64,000 nt of DNA from Escherichia coli (GTDB taxonomy: Bacteria > Pseudomonadota > Gammaproteobacteria > Enterobacterales > Enterobacteriaceae). The notes below the pieces were generated by a model, which saw nothing but the letters and a program-made list of their open reading frames with translations, made no database searches and was not told where the DNA came from. Below, piece by piece: positions 61,629 through 64,000 of this stretch. Position 1 is the first letter of the stretch. Every line of letters begins with the position of its first letter. The stretch lies in NCBI RefSeq assembly GCF_011045215.1, contig NZ_CP049201.1. The stretch is one strand, 5' to 3'. Made by a program: the position numbers and the translations under genes.

Positions 61629-62597
<969 letters not shown>

Positions 62598-62782
62598 GAT
62601 TACCCATCCTTGCAAATGCGTTATGGCGTACTGACAACTGTTCGGGTTTCAGATGAGTGGCTCAGTGTATGCGCCATTCGCTGAGCTACGGGCTATGAAC
62701 CCCTTGAGGGATCGGGCTGCATACACCTTGCCAAATCTAATCACAGTTATTTTAACCAATTGTCAAGATACAAGGAGGAGAT

Positions 62783-63193
62783 ATGCGAATTCTGAACTGC
62801 TATATGGCGAATGACAGCAAAGGCCATTTTGTTACGGCGAAAGAAGCCGCGAAGCACAACCGACAGGACGTTTTGTGCTGTGTGTCCTGTGGTTGTCCGT
62901 TAACACTTAAGCGGGGAAATGACGGACAACCGCCGTGGTTTGAACATGACCAGATGACTGTTGCTGCGAAAATCCTGCTGCGATGCACCTGGCTTGACCC
63001 GGCAGAGAAAGAGGCCCGTCGTTTGCATCTGCAGGGCATGACGGTTCCGGATTATACGGTGAAGGTGAGAAAGTGGTTTTGTGTGATGTGTGACGAAGAT
63101 TATGAGGGGGAAAAGTGCTGCCCGCGTTGTGGTACTGGGGTATACAGCAGGGAGGGGGGGCTGCAGGAAGGCAACTGGAAGGATAGGAACTGA
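62783..63193 (+). CDS. Cys-rich double zinc-ribbon protein, 136 aa (paralog B)
   Basis: ORF track; CCVSCGCPL...PWFEH then WFCVMCDEDYEGEKCCPRCGTG; same architecture as paralog A. Confidence 0.55.
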   Translation: MRILNCYMANDSKGHFVTAKEAAKHNRQDVLCCVSCGCPLTLKRGNDGQPPWFEHDQMTVAAKILLRCTWLDPAEKEARRLHLQGMTVPDYTVKVRKWFCVMCDEDYEGEKCCPRCGTGVYSREGGLQEGNWKDRN

Positions 63194-63381
63194 GCGGTTC
63201 AGTCGCGGAAATCAGTTGCAGAGCTGTAATGATATCTCCGGGAGTGCTGCGTTGGTAGGGGCATCCCGGGATAGAGAAATTTTAGCACTTTGCCCTGAAT
63301 GATTGTAGACGCCCCGAGTACTCGTACCGGTCTGAGTTATTACAGTTAGATATTCACTTTTTCTCCCGCATACTTCACATC

Positions 63382-63403
63382 TGTCAACGACGGATGAAAA
63401 GTG
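63382..63403 (+). repeat. Isolated 22-bp copy of the IS100 terminal inverted repeat
   Basis: TGTCAACGACGGATGAAAAGTG is identical to IS100 end at 44370..44391; flanking sequence diverges immediately. Confidence 0.75.
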
Positions 63404-63476
63404 GTTCTTCCGCAACCTGGGTGGAAGAAAATGGATGAAACTTTCTGGCGAACAAGGATCTAAGCTGTTTTAAGTT

Positions 63477-64000
63477 ATGGGCAACCCAATGCACTCTCTT
63501 AAGACACTTCTACAGTTACCTTGCGGATGGCGATGCAGTCGACAAATTATTAGCTCTGACGGTATAACCCTCCATCTCCACGGAAAACGCAAAACAGCAC
63601 AATGTCCTGAATGCTTTAAGCGTAGCGACTCTGTTCATAGTTGTTGTCGGCGCCGGATACAGCATCTACCCTGATCAGGACAGACGCTATAGCTTGTATT
63701 TTCCGTCCGCCACTGGTACTGCCGTAACCCAGCTTGTTCACGTAAAATTTTTGCCGAGTCGCTTGCTCCCTTCGCCGGTTCACACCAACAGTCTTCACAG
63801 GCGTTACAAAATTTACAACGTCAACTGGGATTAATAGCTGGAGGTGAGGCTGGAAAACGGGCTGCAACGGCAGCGGGTCTCCGTTGCAGTGCTGATACTC
63901 TTCTTCGCAGGGTTATCAATACCCCGGAGACGAAACAGTCAGGCGCGCCTCATGTCGGTATTGATGAGTGGGCGTGGCATCGGGGCCACTGCTGCGGTAT
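63477..64000 (+). pseudogene. ISL3-family transposase, frameshifted, continues past window end
   Basis: ORF 63477..63674 has an ISL3-type N-terminal zinc finger (CPECFKRSDSVHSCCRRRIQHLP); a second frame from about 63696 reads RNPACSRKIFAES...VGIDEWAWHRGH, typical ISL3 transposase motifs. Confidence 0.6.

What the first reader, a model, noticed from the sequence alone, without database searches (positions are those of the whole stretch)
63382..64000. Second IS100 terminus (22-bp IR only) directly abutting an ISL3-like transposase pseudogene
A 22-bp sequence identical to the IS100 outer inverted repeat occurs at 63382..63403 in the same orientation as the copy at 44370, but the following sequence is unrelated to the IS100 interior and leads into a frameshifted ISL3-family transposase. 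The simplest explanations are an ISL3-like element inserted into a second IS100 copy just inside its terminal repeat, or a solo IS100 end left by deletion. Either way it marks a nested IS junction, and two co-oriented IS100 ends about 19 kb apart could mediate rearrangements of the whole island.
Basis: partly seen in the sequence, partly recalled or inferred. Interest (0 to 1): 0.45.

Follow-up and report, generated by a model that had tools for sequence, protein, structure and literature searches.

The report
ISEc38 sitting inside an IS100 shell
The 22 bases are a real leftover of an IS100-type mobile element that was hollowed out by a second mobile element, ISEc38. ISEc38 seems to home in on IS100-type ends because its enzyme carries a copy of the DNA-reading module of the IS100-type enzyme.

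Summary
TGTCAACGACGGATGAAAAGTG occurs only at 44370 and 63382, both on the + strand, and none is expected by chance. What follows 63403 is a decayed ISL3-family element, ISEc38.

There is no second IS100. In near-identical E. coli genomes the ISL3 element is followed only by the 21-nt tip of the other IS100-type end, then unrelated DNA.

ISEc38 proper is a 1,722-bp core with GG…CC tips and an 8-bp target duplication. Copies encoding the identical transposase sit in yehY, in an IS66 gene and inside IS100 ends. In IS100 ends the core always lies 21 nt from the tip and duplicates nt 14-21.

Most copies carry IS100-type 21-mers on both sides, with IS100's 5-bp duplication outside them. These are IS100-type elements reduced to their tips. 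In 106 distinct flanks from relatives across phyla, 51 start with TGT exactly 21 nt outside the core.

The transposase has about 115 aa inserted in its DDE domain. [quoted passage not shown] That this insert directs targeting is inferred, not shown.

I found no description of this behaviour. The window copy is old, dead and present in about half of complete E. coli genomes.

The parts
63382..63402 (+). 21-nt remnant of the istB-proximal terminal repeat of an IS100-type (IS21-family) element. It holds the tip TGT, the GC-rich box CAACGACGG and the AT-rich spacer TGAAAAGT. The inner box GATCCAC and the second repeat are missing.
   Evidence: 21/21 identical to IS100 at 44370-44390. In copies that encode the identical active transposase, the flanks are one or the other IS100 tip in 10 of 12 places. 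Repeat anatomy is taken from PMC10122671.
63403..63425 (+). Left terminal inverted repeat of ISEc38 (ISL3 family): GGTTCTTCCGCAACCTGGGTGGA.
   Evidence: It pairs with GGCTCTTCCGCAACCTAGGTGAA at the right end in L001. It is nearly invariant across the enterobacterial clade. It is the point at which 8-bp duplications begin in core-only insertions.
63403..64000 (+). First 598 nt of a decayed ISEc38 core. The core is about 1,724 nt in near-identical genomes and would end near 65127, beyond the window.
   Evidence: 96.6% identity to intact ISEc38 (L002) over 618 nt without gaps. L001 is 95.6% identical over the whole element, with a 2-bp insertion. RefSeq labels the homologous gene an ISL3 family transposase, frameshifted with an internal stop.
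63477..64000 (+). 5' part of the ISEc38 transposase pseudogene. In-frame stops lie at 63672-63674 (TGA) and 63690-63692 (TAG).
   Evidence: Translation. The intact homologue is 539 aa with Zn_ribbon_ISL3 and a split DDE_Tnp_ISL3 domain.
44370..46323 (-). Intact IS100, used as reference. istA is at 46237-45215 and istB at 45218-44436. The 5-bp target duplication CCAAG is at 44365-44369 and 46324-46328. Its left edge in the window is the istB-proximal end carrying the same 22-mer.
   Evidence: Related records are annotated IS21-like element IS100 family istA/istB.

Best explanation
Positions 63382-64000 are the left part of an IS100-type element that was invaded and hollowed out by ISEc38.

Shown:
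- ISEc38 proper is a 1,722-bp ISL3-family insertion sequence with GG…CC tips that makes 8-bp target duplications.
- It inserts with very strong preference into the terminal repeats of IS100-type (IS21-family) elements, which are the IstA-binding sites.
- It always lands at the border between the AT-rich spacer and the inner GATCCAC box, so nt 14-21 of the end are duplicated and 21 nt of IS100 tip stay outside the core.
- Most copies carry such 21-mers on both sides, one from each IS100 end. The 5-bp duplication typical of IS100 lies outside them, and no IS100 interior remains.

Shown for near-identical genomes, inferred for the window's own genome: the window copy is of this both-sided kind. 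It reads istB-end 21-mer | core | istA-end-like 21-mer.

This copy is old. It is about 4% diverged from the active element, has stop codons, has no flanking duplication left, and sits at this chromosomal site in about half of complete E. coli genomes.

Inferred:
- The interior was lost because both ends of one IS100-type copy were hit and the two 1.7-kb cores then recombined.
- Targeting is mediated by a module of about 115 aa inserted in the ISL3 DDE domain. This module is homologous to HTH-1, the linker and HTH-2 of IstA, the part of the IS21 transposase that reads these very repeats.
For: The 22-mer is real and non-random.

The core is the mobile unit. Copies encoding the identical transposase WP_075262665.1 are 1,722 bp with 8-bp duplications:
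- in yehY (GAAAAAAT);
- in an IS66 tnpC gene (CTGAAAGT, followed by GATCCGC, an IS100-repeat look-alike);
- in the IS100 istB-proximal end (ACTTTTCA).
ISEc38 at 99.7% identity also sits in the IS100 istA-proximal end with duplication GCAATAGT and IS100/istA continuing. A 78% relative sits at the same position of a 77% IS100 relative (L088/L090).

Two-sided copies:
- The 21-mers are 21/21 identical to the two IS100 tips, with 5-bp duplications outside: L098 CCTCC and L102 ACTGT. L112 has a 6-bp one.
- Older or foreign copies show L006/L007 GCTCC, L012 GGTGC, L018 GTTTC and L019 TGGTG.
- A related uninterrupted target reads straight through a single GCTCC.
- No IS100 interior lies within 4.5 kb of these copies.
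- On plasmid CP096903 the six orphan flanks of three copies re-pair perfectly as GTAAT, CCCGG and CCATG, each joining one istA-type and one istB-type tip. This shows that cores recombine.

Generality:
- 51 of 106 distinct core flanks from 55 loci have TGT exactly 21 nt outside the core, against about 1.5 per other offset.
- Actinobacterial relatives at about 33% aa identity show the same two states. L028 and L040 have 8-bp duplications equal to the spacer of an IS21-like repeat, with istA next door in L040. L034, L038 and L041 have 21-mers on both sides with 5-bp duplications.
- In L005, L010 and L016 the core abuts the second repeat and a full first repeat lies outside it.

Protein:
- DDE_Tnp_ISL3 is split (aa 160-295 and 413-534) by an HTH-containing insert.
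- Insert residues 301-386 match IS100 IstA residues 9-98 at 34% identity, E 3e-11.
- Searched against all PDB chains, the insert hits only IstA of IS5376, residues 10-106, E 2e-11. Of four DNA-contacting residues named in the paper, R31 and T92 are conserved and K95 is replaced by R (PMC10122671).
- The AlphaFold model (pLDDT 83.5) shows two three-helix bundles joined by a low-confidence linker. Foldseek returns IstA over about 105 columns.

Control: ISEc53, an ISL3 transposase without the insert, has 8 distinct right flanks, none IS21-like.

Right end of the window copy: L001 and NCTC86 both read …GGAAGAGCC|ACTTTTGCACTGTTCGTGACA|gtatgg….
Against: - The window stops at 64000, so the right end is read from genomes 99.9% identical over 62800-64000, not from the window's own genome.
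- This copy has no flanking duplication (acatc / gtatg), so its own history is not directly readable.
- No IS100 carrying two cores was found, so the collapse step is inferred.
- The single-hit intermediate is rare. It is absent from 5,426 complete E. coli genomes and 72,556 plasmids and was seen only in a few metagenome or draft contigs.
- All 5 E. coli and E. albertii two-sided copies that keep their duplication have the same core orientation relative to the IS100 ends. This could mean the composite spreads as a unit rather than forming anew each time.
- All 64 relatives examined carry the IstA-like insert, including copies at sites that do not look IS21-like (L037, L081). The insert is therefore not sufficient proof of the targeting role.
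- No binding or transposition experiment exists.
Confidence: 0.8

Rival explanations
1. The collapsed composite (IS100 tip, ISEc38 core, IS100 tip) is itself mobile. IstA/IstB from an intact IS100 in the same cell recognise the outer TGT…ACA tips and move the 1,764-bp unit, making 5-bp duplications. ISEc38 would then ride as cargo of a non-autonomous IS100 derivative. This could operate in addition to the main explanation.
For: - 5-bp (sometimes 6-bp) duplications lie directly outside the 21-mers at many independent sites.
- The empty site has no IS21 remnant.
- Several composites with identical cores and IS100-identical tips occur in one strain, RSHH22.
- All 5 duplication-bearing E. coli and E. 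albertii composites have the istA-type tip upstream of the transposase gene. If orientation were random per event, this would happen about 1 time in 16.
- An intact IS100 lies in the same window.
Against: - IS5376 IstA needs two complete direct repeats per end for integration in vitro, and its HTH-1 reads the inner box. The composite lacks both that box and the second repeat (PMC10122671).
- Every observation listed in favour is also produced by IS100 inserting first and being invaded afterwards.
- Copies with two identical tips (istA/istA or istB/istB) lack duplications and are explained by recombination between cores.
Confidence: 0.2
2. The 21-22-mers are a native part of ISEc38. On this view the element has 44-bp inverted repeats whose outer halves merely resemble IS100 ends, and its own transposase cuts at the outer TGT tips.
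For: - Plasmid ISEc38 matches begin exactly at window 63381/63382.
- A 45-nt, 80% complementary inverted repeat spans the outer and inner parts in L002.
- Outer modules are present in most relatives, down to 33% aa identity.
Against: - Copies with the identical transposase transpose as the bare 1,722-bp core with 8-bp duplications and no outer 21-mers: yehY, IS66 tnpC, and the single-hit IS100 ends.
- The outer parts can be either IS100 tip on either side, two of the same tip, absent on one side, or about 50 nt long where the second repeat was hit.
- They track the local IS100 variant exactly: IS100 in E. coli, and the IS100-like element seen in L064 for L020 and L005.
- The duplication outside them is 5 bp, not the 8 bp this transposase makes.
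Confidence: 0.03
3. One reading: a full second IS100 copy with an ISL3 element nested just inside its end and the remaining IS100 lying beyond 64000. Alternatively, a solo IS100 end left by deletion.
For: - The 21 nt are identical to the IS100 end.
- Such nested intermediates do exist elsewhere.
Against: In L001 and NCTC86, both 99.9% identical to the window over 62800-64000, only the 21-nt opposite tip follows the core, then a gamma-glutamyltransferase fragment and a phosphotriesterase-related pseudogene. No istA or istB is present.
Confidence: 0.03

Closest known systems
[quoted passage not shown]
   Same: One insertion sequence homes to a precise position inside the terminal repeats of a different family of transposable element and thereby disables that end.
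   Different: Those elements use a DEDD transposase guided by a seekRNA (PMC11187229). Here the enzyme is a DDE transposase of the ISL3 family. The proposed reader is a protein module homologous to the victim's own transposase DNA-binding domains. The usual end state here is replacement of the victim's whole interior.
ISEc38 as annotated by NCBI ('ISL3-like element ISEc38 family transposase') and listed by MobileElementFinder-based surveys
   Same: The window copy is a 96.6% identical, decayed copy of this named element. The core length of 1,722 bp measured here agrees with my recollection of the ISfinder entry, which I could not check.
   Different: None of the 28 papers that mention ISEc38 in the searchable library, judged from the listed titles and abstracts and one read in detail, discusses its ends, its targets or the IstA-like insert. 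They list it only as a hit.
IS100 / IS21 family (IstA transposase plus IstB ATPase; ends built of repeated IstA-binding sites; 5-bp duplication) - PMC10122671
   Same: The 21-mer is identical to the outer part of the first IstA-binding repeat of IS100. The two-sided copies keep IS100's 5-bp duplication.
   Different: No istA or istB is present. The inner box and the second repeat are missing. The feature at 63382 is a relic, not a functional IS100 end.
Insertion sequences that prefer targets resembling their own ends, such as IS30 and IS911 (my recollection of the literature, not checked here)
   Same: Target choice would follow from the DNA-binding specificity of the transposase's end-recognition domains.
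   Different: Here the preferred targets are the ends of a different family. The inner part of ISEc38's own repeat (CGCAAC…GAAGAAAAT…GGATG) resembles an IS21 repeat only loosely.

Membership tests
IS100 / IS21 family (is 63382 the start of a second IS100 copy?) | istA and istB genes lie between the ends. | tested here: not met
   Sequence after 63403 is ISEc38, not IS100. In L001 and NCTC86 no istA or istB follows the element.
IS100 / IS21 family (is 63382 the start of a second IS100 copy?) | Each end is built of at least two complete IstA-binding repeats (outer box, AT-rich spacer, inner box), starting with 5'-TG. | tested here: not met
   Only nt 1-21 of the first repeat are present: tip, CAACGACGG and TGAAAAGT. 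GATCCAC and the second repeat are absent. Repeat definition is from PMC10122671.
IS100 / IS21 family (is 63382 the start of a second IS100 copy?) | A 5-bp target duplication flanks the two tips. | tested here: not met
   At this copy the flanks are acatc and gtatg. The feature is met at sister copies L006/L007, L012, L018, L019, L098 and L102 and at the window's intact IS100 (CCAAG).
ISL3 family / ISEc38 | The transposase has an ISL3 zinc ribbon and a DDE_Tnp_ISL3 catalytic domain. | tested here: met
   Pfam on the intact homologue gives Zn_ribbon_ISL3 at 40-84 and DDE_Tnp_ISL3 at 160-295 and 413-534. The window copy is 96.6% identical in DNA but carries two in-frame stops.
ISL3 family / ISEc38 | Terminal inverted repeats of the GGCTCTT type. 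| tested here: met
   GGTTCTTCCGCAACCTGGGTGGA at 63403-63425 pairs with GGCTCTTCCGCAACCTAGGTGAA at the right end in L001.
ISL3 family / ISEc38 | An 8-bp target duplication lies directly at the tips. | tested here: inconclusive
   It is not visible at this copy: TGAAAAGT on the left and ACTTTTGC on the right come from two different target sites. It is met in copies with the identical active transposase (GAAAAAAT, CTGAAAGT, ACTTTTCA), in L086 (GCAATAGT), and in 10 loci overall.
IstA-type tandem helix-turn-helix DNA-binding module (as part of the ISEc38 transposase) | Sequence and fold homology to IstA HTH-1, minor-groove linker and HTH-2 (residues about 1-104). | tested here: met
   BLASTP against IS100 IstA residues 9-98 gives E 3e-11. 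In a search of all PDB chains the only hits are IS5376 IstA residues 10-106, E 2e-11. The AlphaFold model and Foldseek agree.
IstA-type tandem helix-turn-helix DNA-binding module (as part of the ISEc38 transposase) | It binds IS21-family terminal repeats. | not testable with these tools
   Support is indirect only: the insertion-site statistics, and conservation of two IS5376 contact residues (R31, T92) with a conservative change at a third (K95 to R).

The most novel reading that the evidence does not exclude
ISEc38 and its relatives form an old subfamily of ISL3 elements found in Enterobacterales, Actinobacteria and probably Cyanobacteria. On this reading they act as dedicated parasites of IS21-family elements. 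Their DDE transposase captured the tandem helix-turn-helix module of IstA and uses it to dock onto IstA-binding repeats. It then inserts at the spacer of a repeat, which splits the binding site. By hitting both ends it replaces the IS21-family element with itself. This would be a protein-domain-capture route to site-specific transposition, and a case of one insertion-sequence family systematically eliminating another.
Probability: 0.5. Interest if true: 0.78.

Novelty: new variant of a known kind. Interest (0 to 1): 0.6.

Why it matters
For this window the answer is modest. There is no second IS100 and no usable IS100 end at 63382. What is there is a dead, widely inherited relic, so it should not be counted as a driver of island rearrangement.

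More generally, the stray IS100-like 'inverted repeats' that flank ISEc38 in thousands of E. coli genomes and plasmids get a simple explanation. Annotators can read them as scars of IS100-type insertions.

If the targeting model is right, it gives a natural example of a DDE transposase retargeted by inserting a foreign DNA-binding module. That is directly testable with a small set of mutants and is relevant to engineering site-directed transposases.

It would also describe an antagonistic interaction between two IS families that could shape how many IS21-family copies survive in a genome.

Finally, the 1.7-kb cores recombine and shuffle flanks, as seen on plasmid CP096903. This matters for plasmid and island rearrangements.

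Tried and rejected
1. My first reading, was that the 22-mer is simply the native outer half of a 44-bp ISEc38 inverted repeat and that the whole 1,764-bp unit transposes with a 5-bp duplication. The empty site seemed to confirm it. I dropped it when bare 1,722-bp cores with 8-bp duplications and single-hit IS100 ends turned up.

2. IstA/IstB acting in trans on the composite is kept only as a minority rival (see rivals).

3. One-step origins were considered on paper and do not give outward-facing tips. These were insertion into an IS100 circle or tandem junction, and insertion into a 42-56-bp IS100-derived miniature element with an 8-bp duplication.

4. I looked for IS21 genes next to the cores in the enterobacterial loci from the species-representative genomes and found none. 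L064 is only a truncated fusion.

5. I looked for the single-hit IS100 junction in complete E. coli genomes and in PLSDB plasmids and found none.

6. Literature searches for ISEc38, ISL3 + IS21, IS100 + ISL3 and ISL3 + IstA found nothing on ends, targets or the domain insert. A supplement search for the reference length of ISEc38 found nothing. The ISfinder length of 1,722 bp is from memory only.

7. The neighbour-joining tree of 64 transposases is rough. I use it only to say that copies with IS21-type flanks occur in at least three separate clades.

8. I first labelled the two IS100 ends 'L-type' and 'R-type' the wrong way round. IS100 is inverted in the window, and the 22-mer is the istB-proximal end.

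Full report
**1. The observation**

TGTCAACGACGGATGAAAAGTG occurs exactly twice in the 64-kb window, at 44370-44391 and 63382-63403. Both are on the + strand. No further site matches with up to three mismatches, and none is expected by chance.

The first copy is the outer edge of an intact IS100 at 44370-46323. Its istA lies at 46237-45215 and istB at 45218-44436, both on the minus strand. It is flanked by a 5-bp duplication CCAAG. Because IS100 is inverted in the window, the 22-mer is its istB-proximal end (conventional IRR). The istA-proximal end reads TGTCACGAACGGTGCAATAGTGATCCAC.

After 63403 the sequence has nothing to do with the IS100 interior. It is 96.6% identical, without gaps, to the start of an intact ISEc38, an ISL3-family element. 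The transposase frame starts at 63477. Within the window it is broken by two in-frame stops, at 63672 and 63690, not by a frameshift.

**2. Genomic context and what lies beyond the window**

The window is E. coli chromosome. The segment is the right part of a CP4-44-like island with an Ag43 adhesin, CbtA/YeeU and antirestriction genes. The island lies between yeeA and cobU.

The junction between the zinc-ribbon gene and the ISL3 element is present in 2,778 of 5,426 complete E. coli genomes. This is therefore an old, vertically inherited insertion.

In strain 120899 (99.9% identical over 62800-64000) and in NCTC86 the element ends …GGAAGAGCC|ACTTTTGCACTGTTCGTGACA. It is followed by a gamma-glutamyltransferase fragment.

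The last 21 nt are the reverse complement of TGTCACGAACAGTGCAAAAGT. That matches the istA-proximal IS100 tip at 19 of 21 positions. So no IS100 interior follows. The ISL3 element is bracketed by the outermost 21 nt of both ends of an IS100-type element.

**3. First hypothesis and why it failed**

Plasmid copies of ISEc38 begin exactly at the 22-mer. An intact copy has 45-nt, 80% complementary inverted repeats.

Relatives from 100,044 species-representative genomes mostly carry such 21-mers outside a nearly invariant ISL3 repeat, GGGTCTTCCGCAACTTGGGTGGA. Several of these have 5-bp direct repeats outside the 21-mers. An uninterrupted homologue of one target reads through a single GCTCC.

This looked like an ISL3 element with long ends whose outer halves resemble IS100 and that makes a 5-bp duplication. 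Three things did not fit:
- The two kinds of 21-mer could sit on either side.
- In some copies the core abutted the second IS21-type repeat, with a complete first repeat outside it (L005, L010, L016).
- ISL3 elements make 8-bp, not 5-bp, duplications.

**4. The decisive data**

I predicted that if the ISL3 core is the real transposon and IS100 ends are its target, junctions of the form core-end + 8 nt + GATCCAC should exist. One pattern scan of metagenome contigs found five.

Three contigs carry ISEc38 (99.7% identical to L002) inside the istA-proximal end of IS100. They read flank|TGTCACGAACGGT[GCAATAGT]|core|[GCAATAGT]GATCCACACCC…istA. The duplication is 8 bp and IS100 continues at 99.5%. 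Two other contigs show a 78% relative at the same position of a 77% IS100 relative.

I then collected places that encode the identical active transposase WP_075262665.1. Three of them are plain ISL3 insertions:
- The bare 1,722-bp core sits in yehY, with duplication GAAAAAAT.
- It sits in an IS66 tnpC gene, with duplication CTGAAAGT followed by GATCCGC, a look-alike of the IS100 repeat.
- It sits in the istB-proximal IS100 end, with duplication ACTTTTCA.

Nine further places have IS100 tips on both sides of the core. In seven the 21-mers are 21/21 identical to IS100. In L093 and L095 one tip carries a small deletion.
- Where the two tips are one of each kind, a 5-bp duplication, or a 6-bp one by chance extension, lies outside them (L098 CCTCC, L102 ACTGT, L112 CCTCTG).
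- Where they are two of a kind, there is none.

On plasmid CP096903 the six orphan flanks of three copies re-pair perfectly as GTAAT, CCCGG and CCATG. Each pair joins one istA-type and one istB-type tip. These were three IS100 insertions whose resident cores later recombined with each other. The same shuffling is seen for another lineage. No IS100 interior lies within 4.5 kb of any of these copies.

**5. Generality**

Across 55 loci with a definable core, 51 of 106 distinct flanks have TGT exactly 21 nt outside the GG tip. The background is about 1.5 per offset.

Twenty loci have IS21-type 21-mers on both sides, and eight of them have exact 5-bp duplications outside. Ten loci have 8-bp duplications directly at the core.

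Actinobacterial relatives at about 33% amino-acid identity show both states:
- L028 and L040 are single hits. Their 8-bp duplication is the AT-rich spacer of an IS21-like repeat. L040 has three further repeats and an istA-like gene next to it.
- L034, L038 and L041 have 21-mers on both sides with duplications CGTGG, GACGA and GGAGT.

Copies with IS21-type flanks fall in at least three separate clades of a rough transposase tree. Their outer 21-mers track local IS21-family variants rather than the core. For example, the IS100-like end seen in L064 matches the 21-mers of L020 and L005.

An ISL3 element without the protein insert described below, ISEc53, has eight distinct right flanks. All are AT-rich …TATACAG and none is IS21-like.

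**6. The transposase**

Searching IS100 IstA against the collected loci unexpectedly hit inside the ISL3 transposases of distant relatives.
- ISEc38 transposase residues 301-386 align to IS100 IstA residues 9-98 at 34% identity, E 3e-11.
- Pfam shows DDE_Tnp_ISL3 split into residues 160-295 and 413-534, with an HTH-bearing insert between them.
- Searched against all PDB chains, the insert hits only IstA of IS5376 (8b4h, 8q4d), residues 10-106, E 2e-11.

According to the IS5376 structure paper (PMC10122671):
- IstA residues 1-39 and 55-104 are HTH-1 and HTH-2, joined by a minor-groove-binding linker.
- Each terminal repeat is an outer and an inner GC-rich box separated by about 10 AT-rich bp.
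- HTH-2 reads one box and HTH-1 the other.
- IstA needs two complete repeats per end.
- The duplication is 5 bp.

In the alignment, IS5376 contact residues R31 and T92 are conserved, K95 is R (as in IS100 IstA), and K32 is not conserved.

An AlphaFold2 model (pLDDT 83.5) shows the insert as two three-helix bundles (312-332 and 349-393) joined by a low-confidence linker. Foldseek returns IstA over about 105 columns. All 64 relatives examined carry the insert.

**7. Mechanism, and what is shown versus inferred**

Shown:
- ISEc38 is a 1,722-bp ISL3 element with 8-bp duplications.
- It lands in IS100-type terminal repeats at one fixed position, the spacer / inner-box border, which leaves 21 nt of tip outside.
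- Most copies are bracketed by both tips of an IS100-type element with IS100's own duplication outside.
- Cores recombine and shuffle flanks.

Inferred:
- Two-sided copies arise when both ends of one IS100-type copy are hit and the two direct 1.7-kb cores recombine, deleting the 1.9-kb interior and one core.
- The IstA-like insert docks the transposase on the repeat.

Not settled:
- Whether collapsed composites still move as units with IstA/IstB in trans. The uniform orientation of the five duplication-bearing E. coli and E. albertii copies hints at this. IstA's need for two full repeats argues against it.
- Whether the insert's primary role is to read ISEc38's own ends, whose inner part loosely resembles an IS21 repeat.

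**8. Verdict on the finding**

It is right that an ISL3 element inserted just inside an IS100-type terminal repeat. It is wrong that a second IS100, or a solo end, is there.

The relic lacks the inner box and the second repeat. It is therefore unlikely to cooperate with the IS100 at 44370 in IS100-type transposition, and 21 nt is too short for homologous recombination.

The window copy itself is ordinary and dead. The rule it exposes appears to be undescribed in the literature I could search. The closest known parallel is IS4321/IS5075 inserting into Tn21-family inverted repeats by an RNA-guided DEDD enzyme.

Noticed in passing
L113:1723-3479 (E. coli 120899; this segment is absent from the window, which joins 41627 to 41620-equivalent); L114-L123: ISEc53, an ISL3 element with a 406-aa transposase lacking the IstA-like insert, always has a DUF1706/ClbS-DfsB gene just upstream, apparently as a passenger. 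Its right end GGGGAAGACCC abuts AT-rich targets of the form …TTTATATACAG in 8 different contexts, which suggests a target motif of its own.
   Followed up: partly
L099, L100, L101 (plasmid CP096903.1 of E. coli RSHH22): Three ISEc38-in-IS100-shell copies on one plasmid have mismatched flanks. These re-pair perfectly as three 5-bp duplications (GTAAT, CCCGG, CCATG), which implies inversions or rearrangements by recombination between the 1.7-kb cores. An unrelated IS21-family istA/istB pair lies directly beside one of them (L108:2455-4460).
   Followed up: partly
L031:~1780-1800 and right end (Amycolatopsis eburnea): The core has an 8-bp duplication TGAATTTC that starts only 6 nt from a TGTCAG tip, so the tip is 14 nt rather than 21 nt outside the core. 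This is either a different geometry or a different target family.
   Followed up: no
L068, L045, L082, L083 (cyanobacterial relatives): Outside the GG tips these carry other conserved inverted modules. L068 has 43 nt with two CCAGGATTA motifs, L045 has TGTGAATTCCTGAAAGTAT, and L083 has GTATGGCGCGACAATTATATT. These may be scars of other target elements. Their ends and duplications were not resolved.
   Followed up: no
L040:1790-1850 (Rhodococcus phenolicus): Directly after the 8-bp duplication of the ISL3 core there is GGATCAGTCGCC. It resembles an ISL3 repeat tip (GGATCTGTCGCAC) and sits where the inner box of the IS21-like repeat is expected. It may be the footprint of an earlier ISL3 insertion.
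   Followed up: no
L064:1778-2001 (Serratia sp. AKBS12): An IS100-like element (end TGTCAACAACGGGTAAAAAGTGATCCAC…) is truncated inside istB and fused to the C-terminal third of an ISEc38-like transposase gene. This is a rearrangement joint, not a targeted insertion.
   Followed up: partly
window 46196/47668 versus L113:8084-12730: Strain 120899 has about 4.6 kb of IS66-family elements (ISCro1, ISEc8) next to IS100 that the window lacks. The island is otherwise 98-99.5% identical, so its IS content differs between close relatives.
   Followed up: no
window ~61629-62600 (- strand): A decayed IS110-family transposase gene lies between two small zinc-ribbon protein genes, just upstream of the finding. 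In related genomes it is annotated as frameshifted or with an internal stop.
   Followed up: no
L104/L106:4404-4426: In the single-hit istB-proximal IS100 end, only 23 nt of IS100 interior remain inside the core. The rest is replaced by other IS sequence, so the hit IS100 was itself already, or later became, a fragment.
   Followed up: partly
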